Translations under genes and position numbers: made by a program
Notes under the pieces: model-generated
What the model was told of the DNA's origin: nothing
What the model saw: only the letters and a program-made list of their open reading frames with translations
The model's database searches: none
From: an uncultured bacterium
Lineage (GTDB): Bacteria; CG03; SLGR01; JAGXOG01
DNA length: 64,000 bases
Assembly: GCA_964476445.1 (NCBI GenBank)
Contig: CAYZAK010000001.1
Coordinates: 83,271 to 147,270 of the forward strand
Direction of reading: 5' to 3'
Shown here: positions 45,296 to 60,213 of the stretch, piece after piece
Layout: every line of letters starts with the position of its first letter
How positions within the stretch are numbered: the first letter of the stretch is position 1

Positions 45296-45692
45296 GATCC
45301 CCTTGTTTTGTAAGTTTTATATTAAATATTTTTTTTTGACCCGGATTAATATTTATAATTTTTTGCTCCTTTATATATCCGGGTTCCACCAAAGTAAGTA
45401 AATACTGTTTTTTTCTTTCCACGGAGACAATAGTGAACTCTCCCGGGGTTCTTCCTTTTAAATAACCATCTATAAAAACTTTTACTCCGGAAGGTTTTGA
45501 ATTTACTTTAATCCGCCCCGGTTTAGACTCTTTATCGGAAATTTCAGAAGTTGCAATTGTTTCCTCATTCTTGTTAATAGTTTTAAAGCCCGGGATATAA
45601 TCCCTGTTTACATAATTATACAAATTTATTCCCGCAGCGGAAAAGCCTAAAAAATTTATTATAAATATTATTATAAGAGAAAGTTTTTTCAT
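45282..45692 (-). CDS. Exported PEGA-domain protein
   Basis: Signal peptide; GRIKVNSKPSGVKVFIDG..GRTP...L.EPGY. Confidence 0.88.
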   Translation of the reverse strand: MKKLSLIIIFIINFLGFSAAGINLYNYVNRDYIPGFKTINKNEETIATSEISDKESKPGRIKVNSKPSGVKVFIDGYLKGRTPGEFTIVSVERKKQYLLTLVEPGYIKEQKIININPGQKKIFNIKLTKQGDHEIY

Positions 45693-45694
45693 TT

Positions 45695-46165
45695 TTACAG
45701 GTCTTCTATATCTTCCTGATCTACACTTAAAGATTGTAATTTATTTTTTAGGTTTTTCATATCTTTTTTCATATTGGTTAGTTCTGTTAAACTTTTATTT
45801 AATTTTTTCAGCTGTAAATGCTCCCGCTTTACCAGAGAAAATATTTTTTTAGTACCCGCTTTTACAGTTTTCATATCTTTGTTTTCTATTTGCACATTTC
45901 CGGACTTTTCCAGTCTGTCTATCTGTTTTTCCAATTCTTTTAATTTATCCAGGACTCCCCAGAGCTGATCTTCAATTTTTTCGTTTTTTTGATCTGCCGT
46001 CTTAAGAGAATTACTGATTTTTTTAAAATTTATAGTTCCAGAATATTTTCTTCTGGTTTTTAATATATTCCATACCATAGTCCATAAGGCAAAGTTTAAA
46101 ATTGCAAATATTATGGCTAACGCTGTAAAAATTACGGTTGGATTAAGCTGTTCAATATAATCCAT
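45695..46165 (-). CDS. Hypothetical protein, N-terminal TM helix plus coiled coil
   Basis: VIFTALAIIFAILNFALW followed by heptad-rich charged sequence. Confidence 0.75.
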   Translation of the reverse strand: MDYIEQLNPTVIFTALAIIFAILNFALWTMVWNILKTRRKYSGTINFKKISNSLKTADQKNEKIEDQLWGVLDKLKELEKQIDRLEKSGNVQIENKDMKTVKAGTKKIFSLVKREHLQLKKLNKSLTELTNMKKDMKNLKNKLQSLSVDQEDIEDL

Positions 46166-46791: not shown

Positions 46792-48288
46792 CTAATTTTT
46801 AGGAAATAGGGATTCGCCTTTAGACACCTGATCAAAATTTAGCTTTATATCCCATTTTAAATTTTCCTGGGCGGATATTTTATTTATGCCCATTTGGTGC
46901 CTGATCTTCAGGCTGGTTTCCGGCATAAACGGATATATCAGCTGGCCAACTATTCTCAATAAATTAAATAAATTAGTCAACACCTCGTTTAACCTATGCT
47001 CTTTGTTTTTTTTATTTAAAACCCAGGGTTTTTCTTCCTCAATATAAGAGTTGCCTTTTTTAATTATTTTCCATATATTTGCCAGGATCCGGTTGAATTT
47101 CAGATGATGATAATGATTCTTATTTATTTCAATTATCTCTTTAACCATTATGGCAAATCCATCCGGCTGACCGGATTGAAATTGAGGTTCATACTTTTCT
47201 ATCATCCCCAGTACTCTGCTTAACAGATTCCCAAGTTCGTTAGCCAGGTCTGAATTATAGCGATTTTTAAACTGCTTGTGAGAAAAATTTCCGTCCTGCC
47301 CAAAGGTAACCTGTCTTAATAAAAAATACCTAAATGAATCCACATTCCACTTATCTATCACATCCAGCGGCTCTATCACATTACCCAGGGATTTACTCAT
47401 TTTTTCGCCGGTGATTGTCCACCAGCCGTGGGCGAAAATTTTACAGGGCAACTCTAAATCCAGAGCCATCAGCATGGTGGACCAGTATACCGAATGGGTG
47501 GTCAGTATATCTTTGCCTATTAAATGACAAGTTGCCGGCCACCATTTTATTTCTTCCGGGGTAAGATATTTTGTTGCCGAATAGTAGTTAATAAGGGCGT
47601 CAAACCAGACATAAGTGACATACTCTTTATCAAAAGGTACGGTTATGCCCCAGGATAACCGGCTCTTGGGTCGGGATATACACAGATCATCAAGTTTATT
47701 GTTTTTTAAAAAACCAAGTACTTCATTTCTTCTAATTTCAGGGCTGATGTAATCGGGGTTAGACTGTATATGATTTATTAATTTGTCCTGATATTTAGAC
47801 ATTAAAAAAAAGTAGTTTTCTTCTTCTATTTTTTCAACTTCTCTGCCGCAGTCCGGACATTTTCCGTCCTCTAAATCGCTTTTTTTCCAAAATCGTTCAT
47901 CCGGGACACAGTACCACCCCGAATACGAGCGCTTTTCAATATCCCCTTTTTCATAAAGTTTCATTAGAAAATTTTGAACAACTTTTTTGTGCTCGGGATC
48001 GGTTGTTCTTATAAAATCGTCATTAGAAATATTTAGTTTTTCCCATAAATTTTTAAAACTTTTAACCATCTGATCGGTATGCTCTTTTGGCGGAATACCC
48101 CGCTCGGACGCTGCAGACTCAACTTTCTGCCCGTGTTCATCGGTTCCGGTTAGAAAAAAGACTTTATGCCCCCTGCTCCGATAATATCTAGCCAGAACAT
48201 CTCCGGCCACCTGAGTATAGGCATGTCCTATATGAGGATCAGCGTTTACATAATACAATGGAGTTGTAATATATTTTGGTTCGGTCAT
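46792..48288 (-). CDS. metG: Methionyl-tRNA synthetase (short form)
   Basis: ITTPLYYVNADPHIGHAY, GTDEHGQK, YVWFDALINY, KMSKSLGN. Confidence 0.97.
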   Translation of the reverse strand: MTEPKYITTPLYYVNADPHIGHAYTQVAGDVLARYYRSRGHKVFFLTGTDEHGQKVESAASERGIPPKEHTDQMVKSFKNLWEKLNISNDDFIRTTDPEHKKVVQNFLMKLYEKGDIEKRSYSGWYCVPDERFWKKSDLEDGKCPDCGREVEKIEEENYFFLMSKYQDKLINHIQSNPDYISPEIRRNEVLGFLKNNKLDDLCISRPKSRLSWGITVPFDKEYVTYVWFDALINYYSATKYLTPEEIKWWPATCHLIGKDILTTHSVYWSTMLMALDLELPCKIFAHGWWTITGEKMSKSLGNVIEPLDVIDKWNVDSFRYFLLRQVTFGQDGNFSHKQFKNRYNSDLANELGNLLSRVLGMIEKYEPQFQSGQPDGFAIMVKEIIEINKNHYHHLKFNRILANIWKIIKKGNSYIEEEKPWVLNKKNKEHRLNEVLTNLFNLLRIVGQLIYPFMPETSLKIRHQMGINKISAQENLKWDIKLNFDQVSKGESLFPKN

Positions 48289-48329
48289 TTTATTGTTTTA
48301 TCCTTATTCTTTAATTTCTTTTATACACT

Positions 48330-48989
48330 TCAATTACTTTTATTATTATCATTTTTATCATTACTGTACATCTGATTTTCAAATCTCAGACAGCACAGCA
48401 ACCGGCCGCAACATCCGGTTATATTTTCCGGGTTTATAGAAATATTCTGTTTTCTGGCCATTTCCAGATTCACGGATTCTAAGCCCTTTAAAAATTTAGA
48501 ACAACATACTTCTCGGCCACATAACCCTATCCCCCCCATAAGTGAAACTTCATCTCTTACACCTATCTGAACCATCTGTATTCTAACCTTTAATTTACGG
48601 CCTAACACCCGGATTAGTGCTCTAAAATCCACCCTGGTCTCAGCGGTGTAGTAAATATATAATTTTTTACGATCGTACGTATAATTGATTTTTGTAACAC
48701 TCATGCTGAGATTTTTCCGGCTAATCTCTTTTATAATCTTAGGTCTAACTTCATTAACTTTTTTTCTATTTTCCTTAAGGACATGGTAATCGTTCTTATT
48801 TAATTTTCGTATAACTTTCATATCCATTTCCTCTTTAGCGGAGGATTTAATTTCAGAAATAACACGGGCGGTTTCCAATCCGTTATTAGTACTTAATAAA
48901 ACCCTATCCCGGGGGACTACCTTTTTTCTGCCTGGAGACGCCGGATAGTACTCGCATAATTGTCTTAATGCTACAGTTACTATTTTCAT
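48330..48989 (-). CDS. ricT: PSP1-domain regulatory iron-sulfur protein RicT/YaaT
   Basis: RVDFRALI, QIGVRDE, GLCGREVCC, ITGCCGRLLCCLRFE; located between holB and metG. Confidence 0.9.
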   Translation of the reverse strand: MKIVTVALRQLCEYYPASPGRKKVVPRDRVLLSTNNGLETARVISEIKSSAKEEMDMKVIRKLNKNDYHVLKENRKKVNEVRPKIIKEISRKNLSMSVTKINYTYDRKKLYIYYTAETRVDFRALIRVLGRKLKVRIQMVQIGVRDEVSLMGGIGLCGREVCCSKFLKGLESVNLEMARKQNISINPENITGCCGRLLCCLRFENQMYSNDKNDNNKSN

Positions 48990-49030
48990 AAATCTATTTT
49001 CACCTGATTAATTTTAATCTTCCTCTTTTA

Positions 49031-50062
49031 CTATATATCCGTTAACCCTAATTTTAAAAACATATTTGAAACTGTCAAAGTTATATTTGCATTTTTATTC
49101 AGATCCCGTATTGCTTTTTCCATTACTTTTATATTTCTGTATTTTTTTTCACCGGGACTTCTATTAAAATCAACTCCCTCTTTTTTAAGAAGCATATTTA
49201 GTTTTTCTATACTTTCTTCCCGGTCTGAAAACTGTTTTGAAATAACCTTAAAAAAATCGGTTATATTAATATTATCCGAAATAAATTCTTCTATATCTAA
49301 AAATTTTAAAAACTTACCCGGAGAACCATCTGAAATATCAATTAATTTTTCAGCAGTCTCTTTATTTAATTTCTTATCAACTTTTTTATTTATAAAATTT
49401 TCCATCTGCCTATCAGTTAAAGGTGAAAATTCTACTGTCTGGCATCTGGAATGTACGGTAGGTAACAATTTTCGGGGACTGAATGTTATAAGAATAAAAT
49501 AAGTACTACCCGGTGGTTCTTCTAAAACTTTTAATATGCCGTTAAGGGCTTCCCCGCTGGCTTGGGCAACGTCATCAATTATAAATATTTTCTTACCATC
49601 TATGTACGGTTTGTGATTGGCTTCTTTTTTTAATTCCCTGATCTGATCTATATTAATTTTTACGGTTTTACTTATTTGATTATTTTTATTTTTTTCTGCG
49701 GGTTTATCTTTACCGGATGTTATAGACCGGCGACGGCCGGAATGAACCATATTATTAAATCTGATTTTTAAACCGGAACCGTAATTTAATACTATATGAG
49801 GCTCTTTTTTAGGAGATCCTATAAACCTTATAAGAGGATGGGAACCGTTCAGTACTCTTTTACAGGAAATACATTTAAGACACGGTCTGTTTTTTTGTCT
49901 ACTGCGGCAATTTATATATGCGCCCAGACTAAATGCCGTTAACCTTTTTCCTATCCCTTCAGAACCTGTGAAAAGTAAGGAGTGAGGAATTCTTTTATCC
50001 CTGGCCATATTTTTAAATCTTTGCTTTATTAGTCGGTGTCCTATTATGTTTTTAAATTTCAT
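49031..50062 (-). CDS. holB: DNA polymerase III subunit delta-prime
   Basis: HSLLFTGSEGIGK, Cys4 zinc module, KVLEEPP, LLPTVHSRCQ; follows tmk. Confidence 0.9.
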   Translation of the reverse strand: MKFKNIIGHRLIKQRFKNMARDKRIPHSLLFTGSEGIGKRLTAFSLGAYINCRSRQKNRPCLKCISCKRVLNGSHPLIRFIGSPKKEPHIVLNYGSGLKIRFNNMVHSGRRRSITSGKDKPAEKNKNNQISKTVKINIDQIRELKKEANHKPYIDGKKIFIIDDVAQASGEALNGILKVLEEPPGSTYFILITFSPRKLLPTVHSRCQTVEFSPLTDRQMENFINKKVDKKLNKETAEKLIDISDGSPGKFLKFLDIEEFISDNINITDFFKVISKQFSDREESIEKLNMLLKKEGVDFNRSPGEKKYRNIKVMEKAIRDLNKNANITLTVSNMFLKLGLTDI

Positions 50063-50097
50063 TTTTAATTTCTACTTAATAATTACCTGGCATGCAC

Positions 50098-50736
50098 TTA
50101 AATTATTGTTTTATTTTTTAACACAGATATCAATTCCAAATGTAAATCGGATATAGATTTGCAGGCGTCCAGAACTACAATATTATCTTCTTCTTTACTG
50201 AGTTTTAAATATCCTTTTCTTACTCTCCGGTGAAATTGTAGATTTTCTGATTCAAGCCGGTCTAACTGATTACCAGAATCCTTGGTTCTTTGTAAACCCT
50301 TTTTGACCGGAATATCAAAAATAACAGTTAAATCGGGGTTTATTCCCCCGGTAGCTATATCATTTAAATTTCTTATTAAATCCAAATTCAACTTTCTACC
50401 GTATCCCTGATAAGCGAGACTGGCATGAATATACCGCTCGCATATAACGTATTTGCCGGCCTGTAACGCCGGATTAATGAGTTCTTCGGTATGCTGGGCC
50501 CGGCCGGCGGCGTAAATAAGTAACTCCGCACGCGAAAAAATTTTACTGTCCGGATTTAAGAGCAATTCCCTTAGTTGTTCAGCGATACTTACTCCGCCCG
50601 GCTCCCGGGTCCAGACCGACGGATAACCTTTTTCTTTTAAATACTTAGACAGCAGTCTTGCCTGAGTTGATTTCCCTGCTCCTTCGGGGCCCTCCAAAGT
50701 TATAAATTTTCCTGGGTTGTTGTTAGATTCTATCAT
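50098..50736 (-). CDS. tmk: Thymidylate kinase
   Basis: FITLEGPEGAGKSTQ, TREPGG, SLAYQGYGR, DRLESE. Confidence 0.96.
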   Translation of the reverse strand: MIESNNNPGKFITLEGPEGAGKSTQARLLSKYLKEKGYPSVWTREPGGVSIAEQLRELLLNPDSKIFSRAELLIYAAGRAQHTEELINPALQAGKYVICERYIHASLAYQGYGRKLNLDLIRNLNDIATGGINPDLTVIFDIPVKKGLQRTKDSGNQLDRLESENLQFHRRVRKGYLKLSKEEDNIVVLDACKSISDLHLELISVLKNKTII

Positions 50737-50737
50737 A

Positions 50738-51238
50738 CTATTGATTAATTTTCCTCCCTCTCAACATTACTCTTTGAGAAAGCGTCGCGCTCTGCTGATT
50801 CTGAGTTACAGTCAGAGTGGCTCCCACATGGGCATAGTTTGAAGCGGGTTCCGTATCCATATATATAAAAAATTTTTCCACCCCACCGGGAATTAAAGTA
50901 GTAGTTGACTTTCTCATCATCCTGTATAGATTATCTCCGGATTTAAAATATTTAATTGTATTGTCCCCCCCCCACTCCTGGGTTGAGCGAGAAATTTTAA
51001 ATTTTATTGAACTGTTACCGGTTATCTCAATAGGATCTTCCGAAGTCTGCCGGACATATCTTGTGATTTCATTCATGGCCGATCTGGATTTTCCAAACAC
51101 ATCAACCGAATCCCTGGTCATCCACCATATATCAAAAGTATTTCTAAAAAACCTGAAAGTTCCAATACTTAAAATTCCCAATATGGCTATACTTATACCC
51201 AACTCTATTAAGGTTACACCCTGGTTCTTTTTTATCAT
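50738..51238 (-). CDS. Type IV prepilin-like protein (PilW/GspJ-like minor pilin)
   Basis: Class III signal KKNQG-VTLIELGISIAILGIL (G-1, E+5). Confidence 0.88.
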   Translation of the reverse strand: MIKKNQGVTLIELGISIAILGILSIGTFRFFRNTFDIWWMTRDSVDVFGKSRSAMNEITRYVRQTSEDPIEITGNSSIKFKISRSTQEWGGDNTIKYFKSGDNLYRMMRKSTTTLIPGGVEKFFIYMDTEPASNYAHVGATLTVTQNQQSATLSQRVMLRGRKINQ

Positions 51239-53583
51239 TTTATAATAATAATTTTTTCAGTATCTTCACTGCCGTTAATCTGAATATTAACAAAATACGT
51301 TCCGCTGGCCGCATAATGGCCGGTATTAGTAAGTCCGTACCATTTTTTACTTCCCGAACCCTTTTTTACATATCCATCCATTAATGATTTTACCAGTTCT
51401 CCCCGGATATTAAAAATTCTTAATTTTATATTACCGCTTTCTTCGGCAACATAATTTATCCGGGCAAACTGTACCCCGGGCTCCCGAATAAAATTATTAT
51501 CCACTGTAATTAGTTCAACGGGGGTCACTTCCCCGCTCCATTCAGACCAGCCGCTGTAAGGCCCATCTAAGGTATAATGTTTTGATTCCGGGTGCCATAA
51601 AACATATTCGTCGGATTCCCCCGAAAATTGGCCGGTTTTGTATGTTTCAGTCGCCAGAGATGGTTCGGTGAAACCGTGCCTGGCTTTGCATCTTATCCGG
51701 TAAGTTTTATTATATTCTCCCCGATAATTATACATCCACCGACCGGTTTCACTCCATACCGGAGGTTCGCCCTCAGACCATATTTCTTCTGAAAATATAA
51801 CCTCCCCATCTTCTTCAATCTCTATATAAGCGCCGTAAATCCCCGTTTCCGGATCCCGGGAAGATCCTTTATCAATTACGAATTCTATATCCCTTTCATA
51901 AATAAATTCACCCGGTATTTCTGGACGAGACGGATAACCCACCGGTGGTGAAGTGTCCACAAAAACCTGTTGTTCCGACCATCCGCTGTAATCGGGATTG
52001 GCCCAGGAATATCCCAGGCCGGTATCTATGGTCTGAACCGCCCAGTAGTAGTCCGAACCAGAAATATTCATTGCCCGAACATGCCGGTGATTGCTCACAT
52101 TGATTCTGTCGGGTACATCTATGGTATCGGAGGTAACCTTGGTTAAATAATTCCCCATGAGCGGGGAGCCGTAACTCATGGGCACCAGGTTGTCCGCTCC
52201 CGATGAGGTTCCCACTCTGAAATTGTAGTACAACCCGCTGGTGGGAGTTTCAAAATCCGGCACCTTCGGATCGTTCCACATAATATAAAGAGTTCCATCA
52301 AAGTACCGGGTAGCGAAACTTTCCACTTGAGGAGGTAGATTATTTTCATCATAAGGAGCAGAATCCACATTGTTTTTTAATAATTTAGTTACCGGGTCAT
52401 CCGTGTCATCTTCCCCTAAAACTGCAAGATCCAGGGCTCTGGAATTATTATAATCTGCCCAGCTGACAGCACCTCGCTGTAAACCTTCCACCCCTACAGA
52501 ATTTCCGATATCTATATAACTGTCAAAGGTATCGGTTCCCTTATAAATTTTTAAATGAAAAGGCCCGGTAATCTCTTCTTCGGCGCCCAAAACAGCAAGA
52601 TCCAGTCGGCCGTCGTTATTATAATCCCCGAAAGCCAGGTTGCTGTTGTACACTCCCGGGAAGCTGAATGTGGATGAACTGAAATTTATCTCCCCCCCGG
52701 GCTGAGTCTTATTGGTATACACTACAGTCTCGGGGGTATCGGGTTCCCGACTAACTATTCCGGAGATCACTAAGTCTATCAGACCGCTGTTGTTATAATC
52801 TCCGGCGATCAGCGAGCCCAGGGCAAAACCTTCTTCTATAATATTGTTCTCCCCGGTGGAAATATTTTCTTTAAAACTTTCCCCGTCCTGGTTTTCATAT
52901 ATTACCGTCACCGGGTTGTCGTCTTCATCCTGCCCTATTCCTATTAAATCCGTCCAGCCGTTATTATTTAAATCCGCCTGGCCCAGGTTCTCAATAGATA
53001 TATTGGTATTAAAACCGGCCTCTTTAGAAACGAATTCTTCGGCGGTGTTAATATATAAAACAGGTTTACTATCAGCAGAAACCGGGCCCACCACTAAATC
53101 CATACGGCCGTTATTGTTAAAATCAATTGTTTCCACAGACCCGGCCCCGATATCCGACAGTTCCTGCATAAGATTAAAGTAGCCGTTATTATTTTTGTAT
53201 ATCCAGACTTTCTGGCCGGTACCGTCATGGCCGGCAATAACTAAATCCAGGGTCCCGCTGTTATCCATATCCCCCCAGACAATATTACCGAAATGACGGT
53301 TTTCCAGAGCTATACCCCTTATGCCGTGGTTTTCAATTTTCTGAAACGAGGAACCGTTGTTTTTATAAATTATAGTTCGTCGCTCTCCTTCACTGTCCCG
53401 CCCCACCGTTATTAAATCCCAGGCGCCGTCATTGGTATAATCGCCCCAGGCCGCTGCCGACTGGGCCAGAGGAACAGCAACGCTGTTAAAATCTGTATCT
53501 TCACCAAAATTGGCAAATAAATACGCCGGCAAAGCAAAAGATATATAAAGGAATATCCCCGCCGATTTTATTAATAACTTCAT
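51235..53583 (-). CDS. Secreted FG-GAP/VCBS beta-propeller protein with FN3-like domains and C-terminal FlgD-Ig/T9SS-type sorting-like domain
   Basis: Signal peptide; seven xGDxNNxGxxDL repeats; C-terminus IKLRIFNIRGELVKSL..WYG..SGTYFVNI..EKIIIIK. Confidence 0.85.
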   Translation of the reverse strand: MKLLIKSAGIFLYISFALPAYLFANFGEDTDFNSVAVPLAQSAAAWGDYTNDGAWDLITVGRDSEGERRTIIYKNNGSSFQKIENHGIRGIALENRHFGNIVWGDMDNSGTLDLVIAGHDGTGQKVWIYKNNNGYFNLMQELSDIGAGSVETIDFNNNGRMDLVVGPVSADSKPVLYINTAEEFVSKEAGFNTNISIENLGQADLNNNGWTDLIGIGQDEDDNPVTVIYENQDGESFKENISTGENNIIEEGFALGSLIAGDYNNSGLIDLVISGIVSREPDTPETVVYTNKTQPGGEINFSSSTFSFPGVYNSNLAFGDYNNDGRLDLAVLGAEEEITGPFHLKIYKGTDTFDSYIDIGNSVGVEGLQRGAVSWADYNNSRALDLAVLGEDDTDDPVTKLLKNNVDSAPYDENNLPPQVESFATRYFDGTLYIMWNDPKVPDFETPTSGLYYNFRVGTSSGADNLVPMSYGSPLMGNYLTKVTSDTIDVPDRINVSNHRHVRAMNISGSDYYWAVQTIDTGLGYSWANPDYSGWSEQQVFVDTSPPVGYPSRPEIPGEFIYERDIEFVIDKGSSRDPETGIYGAYIEIEEDGEVIFSEEIWSEGEPPVWSETGRWMYNYRGEYNKTYRIRCKARHGFTEPSLATETYKTGQFSGESDEYVLWHPESKHYTLDGPYSGWSEWSGEVTPVELITVDNNFIREPGVQFARINYVAEESGNIKLRIFNIRGELVKSLMDGYVKKGSGSKKWYGLTNTGHYAASGTYFVNIQINGSEDTEKIIIIK

Positions 53584-53586
53584 CTT

Positions 53587-54555
53587 TTAAAACTCCACAG
53601 CCGCCATCACGGAATGTTCACTGTTTATGGCTCCTACAATACCCATACCGTAATCCAGCGAAAAACGATTGTATTTAAGACCGATACCCCAGGTAAAATT
53701 TTTTATTTCGTAGTTTAACCGGTAGCCTGCTCGGAAAAAGATTATCTCGCTGTGGCTGTACTCCAGCCCCACATTTCCCCGGACAGATTCACATTCCGGT
53801 TCATAGGTAATATCCAGACTAATAAGAGAAGCATGTTCATCATTAAACCTTACCGGGTAGCTTGCTCCCCCCTTAAATAAAACAGGCAGAGGATCGGTAT
53901 CTGCCCCTGAAGTATACGCTACCCCCTGACCCAGGTTTAATACAGCCCCTCCCACTTGAATCCCCGGGGAAAATAGTCTGGTATATACATTCTTATGTCC
54001 GGTTTTAAAAAAATGTGTTTTAACTAACACCCCCCCGTCACCGGAAAAAGAAGAAGCCCTATAACTTTCAAGTAATTTTGAAGTGTAGTATTTTAGCCGC
54101 CACCCGGCGTACACTCCCGTAATAATACGGAACCCGTAACCTGAAGAATAAATTATGTCTTTTTGGGTCTGGAAGTTCTGTTCGTGTAAGCCTTCATGCC
54201 TTCCGGAAGAATCGTCTATAGTTATCATCCCTCCAAAATACCCCAAAACGCCTATCCCCAGACTTCCCGGACCTATTTTTAAGGAAGAACCTAAATAGCC
54301 TACGTTCGAATCAAGAAAGGAATTATAAAAAAGAGCTGAAAAATTTCTTTTTTCAACCGTTCCTAGGATGGCCGGATTTAAATCCGAAGCCGAATAATCT
54401 CCGGACAGAGAAACCCCGCTTTCACCCATAGAATTCACTCTGGGGGACGGATAAAACTTAAGCATGGCTCCGCCGGTAACTCCCCCGGCGTAAGAACACT
54501 GAAGCCCCCCCGATAATACAAAGTAAAAAAGAATAGTAAATAGTTTAAAAAACAT
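53587..54555 (-). CDS. PorV/PorQ-family outer-membrane beta-barrel
   Basis: Signal peptide; SPRVNSMGESGVS..LNPAILG; alternating beta strands; GLEY...FFRAGY...GIGLKY..FSLDYG; terminal Phe. Confidence 0.85.
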   Translation of the reverse strand: MFFKLFTILFYFVLSGGLQCSYAGGVTGGAMLKFYPSPRVNSMGESGVSLSGDYSASDLNPAILGTVEKRNFSALFYNSFLDSNVGYLGSSLKIGPGSLGIGVLGYFGGMITIDDSSGRHEGLHEQNFQTQKDIIYSSGYGFRIITGVYAGWRLKYYTSKLLESYRASSFSGDGGVLVKTHFFKTGHKNVYTRLFSPGIQVGGAVLNLGQGVAYTSGADTDPLPVLFKGGASYPVRFNDEHASLISLDITYEPECESVRGNVGLEYSHSEIIFFRAGYRLNYEIKNFTWGIGLKYNRFSLDYGMGIVGAINSEHSVMAAVEF

Positions 54556-54573
54556 TAAGCCACAAAAAGTACT

Positions 54574-55842
54574 TTAAAGCTCCGTCCAGGAAATTATTTT
54601 TACCCCACCGGCGCCGTCGGTGTCCTTTAACGGAGGCATAAATAAATCGTCTTCATAAGTAATTTCAACGTTTGAAGATGCGTCCAAATTTCCTCCGGCG
54701 GCAACTATTCCGGTTAACTCCACATTGGAGGAAAGCGAAATATCTCCGGGACACTGAATTATCCCCACGGGATCAACATTGGATTCTATATTTATATCTA
54801 TTCCGTCTTTCCATTCCCCGCCGGACACGATCCAGTTAACCTTTCCGTCACCCTGGACATTGGATCTTATATCAATACCGTGATGGTCTGTATCACCGTC
54901 GGGACCGACCACAAAACTCCCGTCCCCGATAAACTCCACATTTGAGTCCACATTGAGCCCCCCCGGATAATAGTAAGTACCTCCGTCTAAATTATAAGTA
55001 TAGCCGGATTGAAAATTTGCCCGCCCTCCGGTTATATTTACTTTTCCGCCAAAATCGTAATTTTCAATTGTATCTTCATCATCAATCATGGCTTGGGCGT
55101 CTACAAACTCAACTTCGTCGATCGGGTCGGTTTTTTCGGTATAATCAGGAGAGTTCCAGTGAACATCATCGGGGATCCGGGTATTATTGAATATTTCTTC
55201 CCGGGCCAGAATTTCTCTGATTCCGGTTGCGTTATTATCGGGATCAAAATCAAAATTGTTGCCTATGTCTATGGTTCTGGCGCTGTATAGAGCAACATTC
55301 CCTTCTTTGTCCGGTTTAAATACAACTCCCGACCCCATGCTCACCGGGTCATTGGAAAAAATTACTCCCCTGACCTCTGTATTGGCCGCAAAATCAGTAC
55401 GTCCTTCGGTCATAGTTGCGTAATTCGGTAATCCGGCCTGTACTTCGACCCTGGCCCGGATAGTCCTTTCTCCAAGAGCCTGAGCCGGCTTTGGCACATA
55501 TCCGGTGGAGGTTACGGTATAAATACTACCGGACTGAACAACACTCACCCGGGCTACGCCATTACTGTTTCCGGTAGTAGTCCCCACGTCAATTTCAAAA
55601 TCCTGATAATTTTTGTTCTGAATCCGGTAAATGGCATTTTCTATACCGCCGTCGGCCACATAAAAAGCCATCTCCCCCAGTCTCTGACTGGTTTCACTCC
55701 TTGTTTCAAACCAGGTAATCATCAACATACCCGTACCCAGTATTACCAGCACTACCATCATCAATATGGCCCCCACCAGCGCCATACCCCTGTTTTTATT
55801 ATTTTTTTTCATCACATTAGTTGGCAGAGTAGTCCGCTGCAT
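54574..55842 (-). CDS. PilX/GspK-like minor pilin with beta-solenoid C-terminal region
   Basis: RG-MALVGAILMMVVLVILG (no E+5), AFYVADGGIENAI, ends IISWTEL; likely start at 55812. Confidence 0.85.
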   Translation of the reverse strand: MQRTTLPTNVMKKNNKNRGMALVGAILMMVVLVILGTGMLMITWFETRSETSQRLGEMAFYVADGGIENAIYRIQNKNYQDFEIDVGTTTGNSNGVARVSVVQSGSIYTVTSTGYVPKPAQALGERTIRARVEVQAGLPNYATMTEGRTDFAANTEVRGVIFSNDPVSMGSGVVFKPDKEGNVALYSARTIDIGNNFDFDPDNNATGIREILAREEIFNNTRIPDDVHWNSPDYTEKTDPIDEVEFVDAQAMIDDEDTIENYDFGGKVNITGGRANFQSGYTYNLDGGTYYYPGGLNVDSNVEFIGDGSFVVGPDGDTDHHGIDIRSNVQGDGKVNWIVSGGEWKDGIDINIESNVDPVGIIQCPGDISLSSNVELTGIVAAGGNLDASSNVEITYEDDLFMPPLKDTDGAGGVKIISWTEL

Positions 55843-56209
55843 AAGAGACCAGCCGGTTTTCTCTTTGACCTTCCAGCGTCTCCCAGGTAACTTTAACTAC
55901 TATCTCTTTTAGACCACCGTTAACTTTGTTTACCGTAACGATTTGGGTAAAATTTATGTTTTCGCCCAGTTTTTTTGAATCAGAAGTCCAGGTCCCCGTA
56001 GCTATATCAGCATAATAAAAAGATTTCACCTCTTCTATCTTATCCGCGGCCCAGCTGGTAGCCAGAGTACTCATTTTAGCCTGGTTTAAAGCTATATTAT
56101 TTTTCATGAAAAGCTGGGCAAAAGAGACTACGATAAAACCAATTATGGCTATCGAAAGCATAATTTCTATATAAGTAACCCCCAAGTTCCTGTTTTTTTT
56201 AATTTTCAT
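55817..56209 (-). CDS. Type IV prepilin-like protein (PilV/GspI-like)
   Basis: LG-VTYIEIMLSIAIIG; AADKIEEVK..Y; GLKEIVVKVTW. Confidence 0.88.
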   Translation of the reverse strand: MKIKKNRNLGVTYIEIMLSIAIIGFIVVSFAQLFMKNNIALNQAKMSTLATSWAADKIEEVKSFYYADIATGTWTSDSKKLGENINFTQIVTVNKVNGGLKEIVVKVTWETLEGQRENRLVSYAADYSAN

Positions 56210-56699: not shown

Positions 56700-56728
56700 A
56701 GTATATATAATTAAATTTAGTTTATCAA
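56700..56728 (-). promoter_or_regulatory. sigma70-type promoter upstream of fabZ and the pilin cluster
   Basis: TTGATA(56728-23)-N17-TATACT(56705-00). Confidence 0.7.
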
Positions 56729-56760: not shown

Positions 56761-58437
56761 TTATTTTTTCCGGTTCTGTATTTTTGCCCAGGTATCTTTC
56801 AGGGGAACAATCCGGTTAAATACCGGATTTTTTTTGGTATAATCCTCTATATCCGCACAATAATATCCCTGTCTAAAAAACTGAACTCTTCTACCCGGTT
56901 TAAACTCTTTTATTGAAGATTCAGCCAGAGCTTTTTTATTTACGGTAAGTGAATTTTCATTTAAACTATCAGTAAAATCTTCTCCCCGGTCAACTTCTTC
57001 CGGATTGACAGTTTTAAAAAGACGGTCGTAATTACGGACTCTTACATTAACCGAATTTTTTGCGCTCACCCAGTGTAGAGTTCCTTTAACTTTATGTCCA
57101 TCGGGATTCCACCCCCCTCGGGATTCAGGGTCATAGGTACACCTAAGTTCGGTGATTTCACCCCTCTCATTTTTTATCACTTCCTGGCAGGTTATGTAGT
57201 AAGCGTGTTTGAGTCTCACCTCTTTTCCCGGATACAGCCGGAAAAATTTTTCATCGGGATGCTCCTGAAAATCTTCCCTTTCTATATAAAGTTCCTTAGT
57301 AAAAGTTACTTTTCTTTTACCGGCGCTATTATCTTCAGGATTGTTTTCTACCTCGAATTTTTCAACTTTATCCGAAGGATAATCGGTAATAACAACCTTT
57401 AGAGGATCAAGTATAACAAAAATTCGGGCTGCCGTACGGTTTAAATTGTCTCTGACACAATGTTCGAGTAATGCCATATCAACCCTGGAATTAGCTTTGG
57501 AAATTCCTATCTCCCGGCAAAAATTTCTTATGGCCGCCGGGGGATAACCCCGTCTTCTCATACCCGATAAAGTGGGCATACGGGGATCGTCCCACCCGAT
57601 CACATGCTCCTCTTTTACAAGTTTATTTAATTTTCTTTTACTTAACACCGTGTAACTTAAATTCAGTCTGGCAAACTCAATCTGCCGGGGCTGATAAATA
57701 TCCAGTTTTTCCAGAAACCAGTTATACAGCGGACGGTGATCTTCAAACTCAAGAGTACACAGAGAATGGGTTATCTCTTCTATGGAATCTTCAATACCGT
57801 GGGCCCAGTCATAAGTAGGATATATGGTCCATTCATCTTCAGTCCGGGGATGATCCTGCTTTACTATCCGGTACATAACCGGATCTCTGAGGTTAAGATT
57901 TCCCGATGACATATCAATTTTGGCCCTTAAAACTTTTTCTCCTTCTTTAAACTCACCGTTTTTCATCCCCTTAAAAAGTTTAAGGTTTTCCTCTACACTC
58001 CGATCCCGGTAAGGACTGTTTTTACCGGGTTGAGTAAGAGTGCCCCGGTATTCTCTAATCTTCTGGGGACTTAACTCATCAACGTATGCATAACCTTGCC
58101 CTATTAATTCCAAAGCGTAGCTATACATCTTTTCAAAATAATCTGAAGCATAACATAAATCATCCCATTTAAATCCCAGCCATTTCACATCTTTAATTAT
58201 GGAATTGATATACTCCTGCTCTTCTTTTTCAGGATTAGTGTCGTCAAATCTTAGATTACAGGTACCCCCGTAATCCTGGGCAATTGTAAAGTTAAGATAT
58301 ATGGATTTAGCGTGTCCTATATGCAGGTATCCGTTGGGTTCGGGAGGAAAACGGGTGGCCACCCGGTCTCCATACCTACCGGAACTCCGGTCCCGTTCTA
58401 TTATTTCATAAATAAAATTTTTATATTTGGGAGACAT
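56761..58437 (-). CDS. glnS: Glutaminyl-tRNA synthetase
   Basis: TRFPPEPNGYLHIGHAK, THSLCTLEF, VLSKRKL, GWDDPRMPT, KVKGTLHWVS. Confidence 0.96.
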   Translation of the reverse strand: MSPKYKNFIYEIIERDRSSGRYGDRVATRFPPEPNGYLHIGHAKSIYLNFTIAQDYGGTCNLRFDDTNPEKEEQEYINSIIKDVKWLGFKWDDLCYASDYFEKMYSYALELIGQGYAYVDELSPQKIREYRGTLTQPGKNSPYRDRSVEENLKLFKGMKNGEFKEGEKVLRAKIDMSSGNLNLRDPVMYRIVKQDHPRTEDEWTIYPTYDWAHGIEDSIEEITHSLCTLEFEDHRPLYNWFLEKLDIYQPRQIEFARLNLSYTVLSKRKLNKLVKEEHVIGWDDPRMPTLSGMRRRGYPPAAIRNFCREIGISKANSRVDMALLEHCVRDNLNRTAARIFVILDPLKVVITDYPSDKVEKFEVENNPEDNSAGKRKVTFTKELYIEREDFQEHPDEKFFRLYPGKEVRLKHAYYITCQEVIKNERGEITELRCTYDPESRGGWNPDGHKVKGTLHWVSAKNSVNVRVRNYDRLFKTVNPEEVDRGEDFTDSLNENSLTVNKKALAESSIKEFKPGRRVQFFRQGYYCADIEDYTKKNPVFNRIVPLKDTWAKIQNRKK

Positions 58438-58451
58438 ATTTTACCTCTAAT

Positions 58452-58799
58452 TTAATTTTTCTCATCCGAATCTTTATCTTTGCCGTCTTCAGTGTTTGGG
58501 GACTCTTTTTCTTTCTCCATTTCATCAACATACGTTAACTGTAAATTGGTGACGGTGGACTCCAGAATGTCTTTCTCTTTTTTGGTTAAATTCCCTTTGG
58601 TCTTTTCAGACAGCATCTCGAGCATATCAATGTAAGTCCGGGCCATATTCAGATTTTTATCCACTTTACCGGTCTGGGGGTTGGAAATTTTCCCCATTCC
58701 CACCAGAGCAGTTTGAGAAAAAGAGACCACTATATTGGAAAAATCTTCATCCACCTGATTAACTTTATTTTTCTGTTGATTCATAATTACCTCCATCAT
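58452..58799 (-). CDS. DUF1844-domain protein
   Basis: ALVGMGKISNPQTG..NLNMARTYIDMLEMLSEKTKGNLT..E...L..LQLTYV. Confidence 0.88.
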   Translation of the reverse strand: MMEVIMNQQKNKVNQVDEDFSNIVVSFSQTALVGMGKISNPQTGKVDKNLNMARTYIDMLEMLSEKTKGNLTKKEKDILESTVTNLQLTYVDEMEKEKESPNTEDGKDKDSDEKN

Positions 58800-60213
58800 T
58801 TAAAATATTTTCTAAAGTATATTCTATTCTGTCTAACACTTTTTCACGGCCCAGGATCTCAAGTATTTCAAAAACCCCCGGGCCCTTCATTCTGCCGGAA
58901 ACCGCCACCCTTAAAGGATGAAATATTTTTCCTCCACTTATACTATTGTCCTGGCAATAACCCCGCAGATTATCCTCCAGTTCACTCTTTTTAAAAAATT
59001 CTACAGTTTTAAAAATTTGGTGAAGATCTTCAATGATTTTTTTCACCCCTTCTTTTTTTAACCTTTTTTGTACTGCTTCAGGACGGTACTCATATCTCTC
59101 ATTTACAAGAAAATCTATTCTGCTCGGAAGTTCACTTAATACTTTTATTTTATTTTTTTCAGCTTTTATTGCCTTTAAAATTGCGGTTTTGTTTTTCTCA
59201 GGTTTTAAATTTTCTTTTATTAGCCAGGGTTTTGCTTGTTCATATAGTTTATCAACCGTGAGTACCCTTATGTACTTACCGTTAATCCAATCCAGTTTTT
59301 CAATATCAAATATAGCCGAAGAGGAATTACACCTTGAAATATCAAACTTCTCAATAAGCTCTTGTTCCTGAAACAACTGCTGGGAATCACTGGTTGACCA
59401 GCCAAGAAGAGCAAGATAATTTTTAAGCGCTCCAGGAAGATAACCTTTCTTTTTATATTCCTCCAGGGATACCGCTCCGGTCCGTTTGGAAAGTTTCTTT
59501 CCGTCTTTACCGTGAACCTGGGGCAGATGCGCAAATTTAGGATGTTTTTTCTTCAGCGCTCGGCAAATTAAAATCTGCTTGGGGGTATTGGAAATATGAT
59601 CATCACCACGGATAACATGGGATATATTTAAATCGTCATCATCCACCGCACAGGCAAAATTATAAGTGGGCAACCCGTCTGATTTTAAAATAATAAAATC
59701 AGAAAGCGTACCCGAATCTATCTCGATTTCCCCCTTAACTAAATCCTTAAAAACAATATTTCCGGATCCGGGAGTTTTTAAACGATATACAAAGCCCTGT
59801 TTTTCTTTCGAAAATTGTTTTTTTTGAGCTTCGCCAATATTTCTACATCTACCCGAATATCCCATCCCGGAAGTTAACTCTCTTTCTTTTTTTAATTCCT
59901 CCGGCGTACAGTAACATTTATATACCGAACCGGTTTCAATTAATTTTTTCAGGGCACGATCATAAATATTTTTCCGTTTACTCTGATAATACGGTCCTTC
60001 ATCGGGTTCCATACCCAGCCATCTCATACCTCTTAGAATAGCTTCAGTATAATTTTTTTGGGACCGTCTCCGGTCAGTATCTTCAATTCTTAATATAAAC
60101 TTACCTTCTCGGTGTCTAGCGTAAAGATAGTTATAGAGAGCCGTGCGCACACCACCTATATGGAGGTAACCCGTGGGGGACGGAGCGAATCTGACCCGAG
60201 TTTCAGCTGACAA
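58765..60213 (-). CDS. gltX: Glutamyl-tRNA synthetase
   Basis: RVRFAPSPTGYLHIGG, RIEDTD, HVIRGDDH, KLSKR, PLRVAVSG. Confidence 0.97.
   Translation of the reverse strand: MSAETRVRFAPSPTGYLHIGGVRTALYNYLYARHREGKFILRIEDTDRRRSQKNYTEAILRGMRWLGMEPDEGPYYQSKRKNIYDRALKKLIETGSVYKCYCTPEELKKERELTSGMGYSGRCRNIGEAQKKQFSKEKQGFVYRLKTPGSGNIVFKDLVKGEIEIDSGTLSDFIILKSDGLPTYNFACAVDDDDLNISHVIRGDDHISNTPKQILICRALKKKHPKFAHLPQVHGKDGKKLSKRTGAVSLEEYKKKGYLPGALKNYLALLGWSTSDSQQLFQEQELIEKFDISRCNSSSAIFDIEKLDWINGKYIRVLTVDKLYEQAKPWLIKENLKPEKNKTAILKAIKAEKNKIKVLSELPSRIDFLVNERYEYRPEAVQKRLKKEGVKKIIEDLHQIFKTVEFFKKSELEDNLRGYCQDNSISGGKIFHPLRVAVSGRMKGPGVFEILEILGREKVLDRIEYTLENILNDGGNYESTEK

What the first reader, a model, noticed from the sequence alone, without database searches (positions are those of the whole stretch)
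50738..56209. Minor-pilin cluster with a PorV-like barrel and a CTD-tagged seven-repeat propeller where PilY1 usually sits
Seen, in transcription order: pilV-like, pilX-like, PorV-family barrel, FG-GAP propeller with FlgD-Ig/T9SS-type CTD, pilW-like, with gaps of 19 nt or less or overlaps. Established: PilV/W/X form the type IV pilus priming complex with the beta-propeller adhesin PilY1, and PorV shuttles CTD-bearing cargo in Bacteroidota T9SS. Inference: a hybrid in which a pilin or pseudopilin machine works with a PorV/CTD cargo pair, either as a PilY1 replacement or as a T2SS-like route for CTD proteins in a lineage without a full T9SS. It could also be the export route for the giant protein.
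Basis: partly seen in the sequence, partly recalled or inferred. Interest (0 to 1): 0.75.

Follow-up and report, generated by a model that had tools for sequence, protein, structure and literature searches.

The report
Pilin cassette with PorV barrel, propeller
A small group of uncultured bacteria (Elusimicrobiota) keeps one five-gene block that joins pilus-tip proteins to an outer-membrane barrel and an integrin-like surface protein with a type IX secretion tag, two kinds of part not reported together before, but whether they work together is inferred from gene neighbourhood only.

Summary
Five tightly packed minus-strand genes encode: a PilV/GspI-like minor pilin; a PilX/GspK-like cap pilin; a PorV/PorQ-family outer-membrane barrel; a Sec-exported seven-bladed FG-GAP propeller with two fn3-like domains and a T9SS type-A-like C-terminal domain (CTD); and a PilW/GspJ-like minor pilin.

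The organism is an Elusimicrobiota MAG from a soda lake. The arrangement is not unique to it. The same cassette, followed by tmk-holB-PSP1-metG, occurs in at least 9 distinct complete loci, down to about 31% propeller identity.

Six other lineages keep pilV-pilX-pilW-tmk but lack the barrel, the propeller and the C-terminal domain of the PilX-like protein. These three parts always occur together or not at all.

The propeller is integrin-like, not PilY1-like. The closest precedents are barrel/CTD anchoring pairs of the T9SS (PorQ-PorZ, PorV-PorU, SprF-SprB).

Best reading: a type IV filament tip complex linked to a dedicated adhesin and its barrel anchor. The link rests on gene context only. 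No interface could be modelled, and neither the filament machinery nor a T9SS core could be searched genome-wide. Nothing supports a link to the giant protein. It is a new variant of known kinds, of moderate to high interest.

The parts
55817..56209 (-). PilV/GspI-like minor (pseudo)pilin, 130 aa. Class III signal: ...NRNLG|VTYIE, with Gly at -1 and Glu at +5.
   Evidence: All 15 orthologues hit PilV (TIGR02523), 13 hit ComGE and 12 hit GspI, all below curated cut-offs. The profile matches only the pilin N-termini of solved pilins.
54574..55842 (-). PilX/GspK-like large cap pilin, 422 aa (probable true start at M11, coordinate 55812). The N-terminal hydrophobic pilin segment lacks Glu at +5. 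The C-terminal domain, about residues 140-422, is repeat-rich and DUF7305-like.
   Evidence: PilX_N 19.6 bits, GspK 24.4 bits and DUF7305 21.7 bits are all sub-threshold. An HMM of the C-terminal domain finds it only in loci that also carry the barrel and propeller. The family is small: 25 clusters at E <= 1e-30.
53587..54555 (-). PorV/PorQ-family outer-membrane beta-barrel, 322 aa, with a Sec-type signal peptide.
   Evidence: NF033709 scores 116.6 bits against a cut-off of 90. The profile hits PorV 6h3i_F at E = 6.6e-11. The AF2 model is low-confidence (pLDDT 51), but its best Foldseek match is PorV 6h3i_F (TM 0.54, E = 1.3e-7), followed by TbuX, FapF, TodX and FadL.
52369..53583 (-). Propeller protein, N-terminal part: signal peptide (residues 1-24) and a seven-bladed FG-GAP, integrin-alpha-like Ca-binding beta-propeller (about residues 36-405).
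   Evidence: FG-GAP_3 scores 91.9 bits. There are seven Ca motifs and 28 strands. Foldseek matches integrin alphaV at 1.3e-13, then CRTAC1 and UmbA4.
51664..52326 (-). Propeller protein, middle part: two fn3/Ig-like domains (about residues 420-640). The first holds the densest run of invariant residues in the family.
   Evidence: AF2 model. fn3 (PF00041) is precomputed in many orthologues. Invariant columns 436-547 in alignment A2.
51235..51531 (-). Propeller protein, C-terminal domain (about residues 685-782 plus the stop codon): a beta-sandwich of FlgD_ig / T9SS type-A CTD kind, ending ...ASGTYFVNIQINGSEDTEKIIIIK.
   Evidence: FlgD_ig scores 28.1 bits (cut-off 27). Por_Secre_tail 21.9 and TIGR04183 21.7 are just below cut-off. 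It is strongly conserved in all orthologues. The family CTD HMM finds exactly one copy in the window. PorZ 5m11 and PorU 6za2 are among the Foldseek matches.
50738..51238 (-). PilW/GspJ-like minor (pseudo)pilin, 166 aa. Class III signal: ...KKNQG|VTLIE.
   Evidence: N_methyl scores 23.0 bits (cut-off 21.2). GspJ hit at E = 1.3e-5. Of the orthologues, 11 of 12 hit Verru_Chthon cassette protein C and 5 of 12 hit GspJ.
56700..56728 (-). Candidate sigma-70-like promoter upstream of the fabZ-like gene, which precedes the cassette. This is the only intergenic gap over 40 nt near the cassette.
   Evidence: Consensus match of 10 of 12. The scan as a whole is not enriched over shuffles, so this is weak evidence.

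Best explanation
The five genes form one functional unit, restricted to a clade within Elusimicrobiota.

Three of them encode the tip, or priming, complex of a type IV filament (T4P/T2SS class). These are a PilV/GspI-like and a PilW/GspJ-like pilin, capped by a PilX/GspK-like pilin that carries a clade-specific C-terminal domain.

The other two encode a Sec-exported, Ca-binding, integrin-like propeller adhesin and its own PorV/PorQ-type outer-membrane barrel.

Proposed mechanism (inferred, not shown):
1. The folded propeller protein meets the tip complex in the periplasm, probably through the PilX-like C-terminal domain.
2. The growing filament carries or pushes it through the outer-membrane channel, as PilY1 or a T2SS/T4bP cargo would be.
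3. Its uncleaved T9SS-type CTD is then captured by the dedicated barrel. This holds the propeller on the cell surface, as PorQ holds PorZ and PorV holds PorU.

Shown: the gene identities, the domain architecture, the tight operon packing, the deep conservation, and the strict three-way co-occurrence.
Inferred: every physical interaction, the route across the outer membrane, and the adhesin role.
For: - Identities and folds.
- The genes overlap or are separated by 18 nt or less.
- The cassette recurs in at least 9 distinct complete loci and 5 partial ones, down to about 31% propeller identity, while the upstream neighbours change several times.
- The barrel and propeller never occur singly wherever both positions are visible. 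In L007 and L008 their order is swapped, yet they stay between pilX and pilW.
- Six lineages lack the barrel, the propeller and the PilX-like C-terminal domain all together.
- Loci with the pair fall in two deep clades of a housekeeping-gene tree.
- There is one CTD and one barrel per locus, and none in any flank. More distant FG-GAP/FlgD_ig proteins have no barrel or pilin neighbours.
- Precedent for barrel/CTD anchoring: PorU and PorZ are anchored through PorV and PorQ (PMC5562754). Retained CTDs are bound to cognate PorV-like barrels, including PorP/SprF-like barrels for type-B cargo (PMC10202324).
Against: - The evidence is gene context only.
- The pilW-tmk-holB-PSP1-metG adjacency is just as conserved, with a 1-nt gap, although those genes have no plausible role with pilins. 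Conserved synteny in this phylum therefore does not prove joint function.
- The tree is neighbour-joining, midpoint-rooted and without support values. A different root would make the pair a single gain, inherited vertically.
- No major pilin, assembly ATPase, platform protein or secretin lies in the window or next to any Elusimicrobial cassette.
- Endomicrobium genomes are reported to keep pilD and pilin genes without a complete T4P machine (PMC8809381).
- The pilin assignments are all below curated cut-offs.
- The barrel model has low confidence.
- The co-fold test was not possible.
Confidence: 0.45

Rival explanations
1. Independent module. The barrel and the propeller-CTD protein form a self-contained surface-protein and anchor pair, like PorQ-PorZ or SprF-SprB. 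The pair landed once inside a minor-pilin operon and has been inherited vertically. It is exported by some other route, either an unrecognised T9SS-like translocon or a barrel-assisted route, and the pilins play no part.
For: Barrel plus cognate CTD cargo is a known stand-alone pairing (PMC5562754, PMC10202324). Unrelated housekeeping genes (tmk, holB) are just as tightly and stably linked to the cassette. The loci with the pair could form one clade under a different rooting.
Against: The PilX-like C-terminal domain is present exactly where the pair is present. The pair stays between pilX and pilW even where its internal order is swapped. No T9SS core gene is seen in the window or any flank. 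The T9SS is described as a Bacteroidota system (PMC12365241, PMC10202324).
Confidence: 0.25
2. True tip adhesin. The propeller rides on the filament tip like PilY1, PilC or ComZ and mediates adhesion at a distance. The barrel is a docking or parking site for the tip, through the CTD, when the filament is retracted, or it stands in for a secretin-associated outer-membrane component.
For: The non-pilin genes sit where pilY1 sits in pilVWXY1 operons (own knowledge). PilY1 also has a seven-bladed Ca-binding propeller (own knowledge). The slot between pilX and pilW holds other lineage-specific secreted proteins in sister lineages.
Against: There is no sequence or top-50 structural likeness to PilY1. 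A CTD plus cognate barrel points to outer-membrane anchoring rather than a travelling tip protein. There is no evidence for a long filament: no major pilin lies nearby.
Confidence: 0.15
3. The barrel is a FadL/UPF0164-type channel for small hydrophobic molecules. It is unrelated to the CTD, and the propeller is a periplasmic or secreted protein with another role.
For: Relatives of the barrel hit Pfam UPF0164. Foldseek also lists TbuX, TodX and FadL. A fabZ-like gene lies just upstream in the closer relatives.
Against: The sequence profile finds only PorV in the PDB, not FadL or TodX. The NCBIfam PorV/PorQ family is hit above cut-off. The barrel and the CTD protein co-occur strictly, one to one. 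The fabZ-like gene is missing from the more distant cassettes.
Confidence: 0.07

Closest known systems
PorQ-PorZ and PorV-PorU sub-complexes of the Porphyromonas gingivalis T9SS attachment complex
   Same: A PorV/PorQ-family barrel is paired one to one with a surface protein that keeps a T9SS-type CTD. PorZ itself is built of beta-propellers plus a CTD (5m11 is among the structural matches). Anchoring through the barrel is documented in PMC5562754 and PMC10202324.
   Different: The propeller here is a single FG-GAP, integrin-type propeller followed by two fn3-like domains. The barrel scores far below the PorV and PorQ equivalog cut-offs (62.3 against 250; 36.9 against 220). No SprA/PorKLMN/PorU context is seen. 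The phylum is Elusimicrobiota, not Bacteroidota. The pair is embedded among minor-pilin genes.
Cognate PorP/SprF-like barrel next to a type-B CTD cargo gene (for example sprF-sprB in Flavobacterium)
   Same: A dedicated barrel gene lies next to the gene of its single CTD cargo (PMC10202324). One relative's barrel also has a weak PorP_SprF hit.
   Different: The CTD here resembles type A / FlgD_ig, not type B. No T9SS context is seen. The flanking genes are pilins.
T4aP priming complex PilV-PilW-PilX with PilY1 (Pseudomonas, Myxococcus)
   Same: Three minor pilins of the same classes, with a large Sec-exported non-pilin protein encoded among them. Both non-pilin proteins have seven-bladed Ca-binding propellers (the PilY1 facts are from own knowledge).
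   Different: There is no homology to PilY1/PilC. No FimU or PilE is present. An outer-membrane barrel and a CTD are added. The cassette is detached from any pilus machinery genes.
T2SS pseudopilus tip GspI-GspJ-GspK, and T4bP-dependent secretion of operon-encoded proteins (TcpF, CofJ)
   Same: There are weak GspI, GspJ and GspK likenesses. The cap pilin lacks Glu5. There is precedent that a filament tip engages a soluble protein encoded in the same operon and exports it (own knowledge).
   Different: No GspD, E, F, G or H lies nearby. The proposed cargo carries a T9SS-type CTD and has its own barrel.
Verru_Chthon cassette (TIGR02596-TIGR02600) of Verrucomicrobia
   Same: A free-standing cassette of prepilin-type proteins. 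Eleven of 12 PilW-like orthologues hit cassette protein C weakly.
   Different: All scores are far below cut-off (best individual score 21.2 against 256.5 for the window protein). That cassette has no barrel or propeller (own knowledge).

Membership tests
Type IX secretion system (T9SS) | PorV/PorQ-family outer-membrane barrel | tested here: met
   NF033709 scores 116.6 bits against a cut-off of 90. The profile hits PorV 6h3i_F at E = 6.6e-11. The best Foldseek match of a low-confidence model is 6h3i_F. It is not an equivalog of PorV (62.3 against 250) or PorQ (36.9 against 220). This copy has no Pfam hit.
Type IX secretion system (T9SS) | Cargo with a C-terminal sorting domain (type A CTD) | tested here: inconclusive
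   FlgD_ig 28.1 bits just passes its cut-off of 27. PF18962 scores 21.9 against 27, and TIGR04183 scores 21.7 against 23, so both fall just short. The AF2 model shows a C-terminal beta-sandwich. PorZ and PorU are among the structural matches.
Type IX secretion system (T9SS) | SprA/Sov translocon and PorK/L/M/N (GldK-N) motor and ring | not testable with these tools
   None is present among the window's genes or the roughly 100 annotated neighbours in related loci. The rest of the genome could not be reached.
Type IX secretion system (T9SS) | PorU sortase and CTD cleavage with A-LPS attachment | not testable with these tools
   There is no PorU-like gene in the window. The only PorU hit is the shared CTD region. 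Cleavage needs an experiment.
T4aP minor-pilin / PilY1 priming complex | Class III (prepilin) signal with Gly at -1 and Glu at +5 | tested here: met
   G|VTYIE in the first pilin and G|VTLIE in the last. N_methyl scores 23.0 bits against a cut-off of 21.2. The PilX-like protein has G|MALVG without Glu5, as cap pilins do.
T4aP minor-pilin / PilY1 priming complex | Equivalog-level PilV, PilW, PilX | tested here: not met
   PilV scores 17.9 bits against 52.2. PilX_N scores 19.6 against 25.5. There is no PilW model hit. The likeness is consistent across orthologues but always sub-threshold.
T4aP minor-pilin / PilY1 priming complex | PilY1/PilC-type propeller protein | tested here: not met
   No PilY1/PilC family is hit at E <= 0.1. 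The best 50 structural matches are integrin alpha, CRTAC1, UmbA4, BBSome, DDB1, PorZ and others, not PilY1.
T4aP or T2SS machine | Major pilin, PilB/GspE ATPase, PilC/GspF platform, PilQ/GspD secretin, PilD peptidase | not testable with these tools
   All are absent from the 64-kb window and from the flanks of all Elusimicrobial cassettes. A genome-wide search was not possible. PMC8809381 reports pilD and pilins without a full T4P set in Endomicrobium.
T2SS pseudopilus tip (GspI-J-K) | Homology to GspI, GspJ and GspK | tested here: inconclusive
   GspI scores 17.5 bits against 44.35. GspJ scores 25.1 against 64.85. GspK scores 24.4 against 130, N-terminus only. Twelve of 15 orthologues hit GspI and 5 of 12 hit GspJ.
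FG-GAP / integrin-alpha-type beta-propeller | Seven FG-GAP repeats with Ca-binding loops forming a seven-bladed propeller | tested here: met
   FG-GAP_3 scores 91.9 bits against 26.9. There are seven motifs (plus direct reading). The AF2 model has 28 strands, mostly with pLDDT >= 85. Integrin alphaV matches at 1.3e-13.

The most novel reading that the evidence does not exclude
Recognition of a CTD by a PorV-type barrel is not exclusive to the T9SS. In Elusimicrobiota it is coupled to a type IV filament tip complex. This would make a previously unrecognised hybrid pathway in which a pseudopilus or pilus exports one dedicated integrin-like adhesin, and a PorV-like barrel then captures its CTD on the cell surface. 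It would imply that the barrel/CTD hand-over module is older than, or was exchanged independently of, the SprA/PorKLMN machine.
Probability: 0.3. Interest if true: 0.8.

Novelty: new variant of a known kind. Interest (0 to 1): 0.6.

Why it matters
T9SS parts (the PorV barrel and CTD cargo) and type IV filament parts (minor pilins) are treated as belonging to separate machines with separate phylogenetic ranges. Here is a conserved operon that interleaves them, in a phylum not known for a T9SS.

If the parts do work together, three things would follow:
- The barrel/CTD anchoring module would prove portable between secretion routes.
- There would be a new example of what can fill the 'PilY1 slot' of a pilus tip complex.
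- There would be a concrete candidate for how these ultra-small, uncultured bacteria attach to surfaces or partners.

It also yields a compact five-gene system whose interactions can be tested by co-folding and heterologous co-expression.

If the parts are independent, the finding is still a useful warning: very deep synteny conservation can arise without shared function, as it does here with tmk-holB.

Tried and rejected
- Co-folding the barrel with the CTD. I built eight paired barrel-linker-CTD fusions (alignment A4).
- Barrel structure. Only 7 homologues were found, and the AF2 model is poor (pLDDT 51). I used it only as weak support.
- PilX-like profile against the PDB. Nothing meaningful came back. 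The PilV-like and PilW-like profiles match only the pilin N-terminal helices.
- Literature. 'PorV' with 'minor pilin' returned two irrelevant papers. 'Elusimicrobia' with 'T9SS' returned nothing relevant. The Elusimicrobium minutum genome paper is not held.
- Horizontal transfer of the pilX-barrel-propeller core. GC3 is 0.40-0.46 against 0.25-0.40 in the close flanks, but this is within the range of other window genes (UvrD 0.50, Mfd 0.44). There is no clear signal.
- Apparent N-terminal truncation of the barrel in L002, L003 and L006. This was rejected: the reading frame is open upstream and encodes a signal peptide. Only a canonical start codon is missing.
- A link between the fabZ-like gene and the barrel (a lipid or FadL idea). 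This was rejected: fabZ is upstream only in the closer relatives.
- RNA evidence for co-transcription. Only soda-lake DNA metagenome runs hold the sequence.
- Promoter and terminator scans are not enriched over shuffles.


Full report
**1. What is there.** The window is transcribed almost entirely on the minus strand. In transcription order they are:
- 55817-56209, 130 aa. It has a prepilin signal (G|VTYIE). It and all 15 aligned orthologues resemble PilV, ComGE and GspI, always below curated cut-offs.
- 54574-55842, 422 aa. It has a PilX_N/GspK-like N-terminus without Glu5 and a roughly 280-residue repeat-rich C-terminal domain with a sub-threshold DUF7305 hit. Homologues start at M11.
- 53587-54555, 322 aa. 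It has a Sec signal and belongs to the NCBIfam PorV/PorQ family at 116.6 bits against a cut-off of 90. A profile of its homologues finds one thing in the PDB, Flavobacterium PorV (6h3i_F, E = 6.6e-11, aligned over almost the full length). Its AlphaFold2 model is poor (pLDDT 51), but the model still matches PorV best (TM 0.54) ahead of TbuX, FapF, TodX and FadL.
- 51235-53583, 782 aa. FG-GAP_3 scores 91.9 bits and FlgD_ig 28.1 bits (cut-off 27). Por_Secre_tail falls just short of its cut-offs.
- 50738-51238, 166 aa. It has a prepilin signal (G|VTLIE). N_methyl is above cut-off. It is GspJ-like and Verru_Chthon-C-like below cut-off.

The junctions are a 26-nt overlap (or a 4-nt gap from M11), then an 18-nt gap, a 3-nt gap and a 4-nt overlap. 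The last pilin stops 1 nt before tmk.

**2. The propeller protein.** I predicted its structure with an alignment of 53 full-length orthologues. The model is good (pLDDT 83.5, pTM 0.73). It shows four parts:
- a signal peptide;
- a seven-bladed, 28-strand propeller (about residues 36-405) with seven Ca-type loops (and direct reading);
- two fn3/Ig-like domains (about residues 420-640);
- a C-terminal beta-sandwich (about residues 685-782).

The best structural matches are integrin alphaV (1.3e-13), CRTAC1 and the Streptomyces lectin UmbA4. PorZ (5m11) and PorU (6za2) also appear. PilY1 is not among the best 50, and no PilY1/PilC Pfam family is hit. It is therefore an integrin-type propeller adhesin with a T9SS type-A-like tail. 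It is not a PilY1 homologue.

**3. Whose genome, and is the arrangement unique?** Homologues of the PilX-like protein are few, and all come from Elusimicrobiota MAGs. The DNA comes from soda-lake metagenomes.

Context look-ups and a scan of 185,579 species genomes show the same block in at least 9 distinct complete loci: pilV-like, PilX-like, barrel, propeller-CTD, pilW-like, then tmk-holB-PSP1-metG. These loci are the window, L001, L002, L007, L013, L016, L037, L039 and L041. Five truncated contigs (L008, L011, L012, L017, L022) are consistent with it. Conservation reaches down to about 31-35% identity of the propeller protein and about 26% of the barrel. Meanwhile the upstream neighbours change: GlnRS/fabZ, GidA/fabZ, MoaC/MoCF, or an HTH gene. 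In L007 and L008 the propeller gene precedes the barrel gene, but the pair is still between pilX and pilW.

**4. A variable slot and a three-way co-occurrence.** Six other lineages (L020, L021, L024, L025, L026, L028) keep pilV-pilX...pilW-tmk-holB-PSP1-metG but have no barrel and no propeller. Their slot is empty or holds other secreted or PilX-like proteins.

An HMM of the C-terminal domain of the window's PilX-like protein detects that domain in every locus that has the barrel and propeller, and in contigs that are cut before them. It detects it in none of the six loci without the pair, whose PilX-like proteins share only the pilin N-terminus. Wherever both positions are visible, the barrel and propeller never occur singly.

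HMMs of the CTD and of the barrel find exactly one copy each in the window. In all fetched loci they find nothing outside the cassettes. Pfam annotation of about 100 neighbouring genes shows no other CTD. More distant FG-GAP/FlgD_ig proteins (P0072, P0073) have no barrel or pilin neighbours.

In a neighbour-joining tree of tmk, holB, PSP1 and MetRS, the loci with the pair fall into two deep clades. The clade without the pair is sister to one of them. This suggests an old pair that was lost or replaced once. The tree is midpoint-rooted and has no support values, so a single gain cannot be excluded.

**5. What is missing.** The 64-kb window holds no major pilin, no PilB/GspE-type ATPase, no platform protein, no secretin and no T9SS core gene. 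No flank of an Elusimicrobial cassette holds any of these either. I could not reach the rest of the genome.

The literature held here says that Elusimicrobiota encode pilins as their only appendages (PMC11257099). It also says that Endomicrobium genomes keep pilD and pilin genes without a complete T4P set (PMC8809381), and that the T9SS is a Bacteroidota system (PMC12365241, PMC10202324). No paper links PorV to minor pilins.

**6. How it most likely works.** In the T9SS, PorZ and PorU keep their CTDs and are held on the cell surface by the barrels PorQ and PorV (PMC5562754). Cognate PorV-like barrels, including PorP/SprF-like ones, handle individual CTD cargoes (PMC10202324). PorZ is itself a propeller protein with a CTD.

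The barrel and propeller-CTD pair here fits that pattern: one barrel, one CTD, adjacent genes. The three pilins are the universal GspI/J/K or PilV/W/X tip set. The cap pilin carries a domain that exists only where the pair exists.

My best reading (confidence 0.45) is a single unit. The filament tip complex engages the folded adhesin in the periplasm and takes it through the outer membrane. The dedicated barrel then captures the uncleaved CTD and displays the propeller on the surface. Every contact in this scheme is inferred.

The main rival (0.25) is that the pair is an autonomous surface module that sits in the pilin operon for historical reasons. That rival is strengthened by one fact: tmk-holB are equally conserved neighbours although they share no function with pilins. 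A PilY1-like travelling tip adhesin (0.15) and a FadL-like role for the barrel (0.07) are less likely.

**7. The giant protein.** An ORF of more than 9,100 codons with a signal peptide runs from 27313 off the left end of the window. It is 23 kb and about 20 mostly housekeeping genes downstream of the cassette. Its C-terminus is not in the window. Nothing connects it to the cassette.

The cassette is rare. The full-length PilX-like family has only 25 clusters at E <= 1e-30 among 1.84 billion representatives. As far as the searches here show, it has not been described. It is a new variant of known kinds of system, not a new kind.

Interest is 0.6. It is surprising enough for secretion-system specialists and directly testable by co-folding and co-expression, but it rests on gene neighbourhood in uncultured organisms.

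Noticed in passing
window 2-27313 (-): A giant ORF of more than 9,100 codons with a Sec-type signal peptide and TIG/IPT-like hits. It runs off the left end of the window, so its C-terminus cannot be read. Its GC content (0.48) is higher than that of most neighbours.
   Followed up: partly
window 46792-50736 (-); loci L001, L002, L007, L013, L016, L020-L028, L037-L041: The minor-pilin cassette always directly precedes tmk-holB-PSP1-metG across Elusimicrobiota. In the window the last pilin stops 1 nt before tmk. This is an unexplained, very stable linkage of pilin genes to essential replication and translation genes.
   Followed up: partly
L013, L014, L016, L017, L025: MAGs labelled 'Clostridia' carry the same cassette, including an outer-membrane barrel, and the same tmk-holB-PSP1-metG synteny. 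The taxonomic labels are probably wrong.
   Followed up: no
L007 5501-8806; L008 2492-3025: The order of the barrel and propeller genes is swapped (propeller first). The pair stays between pilX and pilW.
   Followed up: yes
L002 11293-11479 (also L003, L006): The barrel gene has an open frame that encodes a signal peptide, but no ATG, GTG or TTG at its N-terminus, in three independent assemblies. It probably uses a non-canonical start codon.
   Followed up: partly
L024 9561-10952; L026 7509-8924; L028 2254-3645: Lineages without the barrel and propeller carry, in the same slot, a protein of about 465 aa. It has a Sec-like N-terminus and an internal PilX_N-like segment (about residues 158-258).
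   Followed up: partly
L017 7351-8001 and 10292-12342; L019 7321-7977: This variant cassette has an extra membrane-anchored gene of about 216 aa between pilV and pilX. In L017 the propeller gene is split across two frames, from either a frameshift or an assembly error.
   Followed up: no
window 42695-46165 (-): A conserved trio lies downstream of metG and an aldolase gene: a 156-aa protein, a PEGA-domain protein, and an 866-aa protein with a Glucodextran_C (SLH-like) module. It may be a cell-envelope or S-layer unit. It is syntenic in L001, L037 and L039.
   Followed up: no
window 56761-60213 (-): GluRS and GlnRS genes lie in tandem, with a DUF1844 gene between them.
   Followed up: no
window 27310-28890 (-): A 526-aa polytopic membrane protein with no family hit lies directly upstream of the giant ORF, after UbiA, TPR and HEAT-repeat genes.
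   Followed up: no
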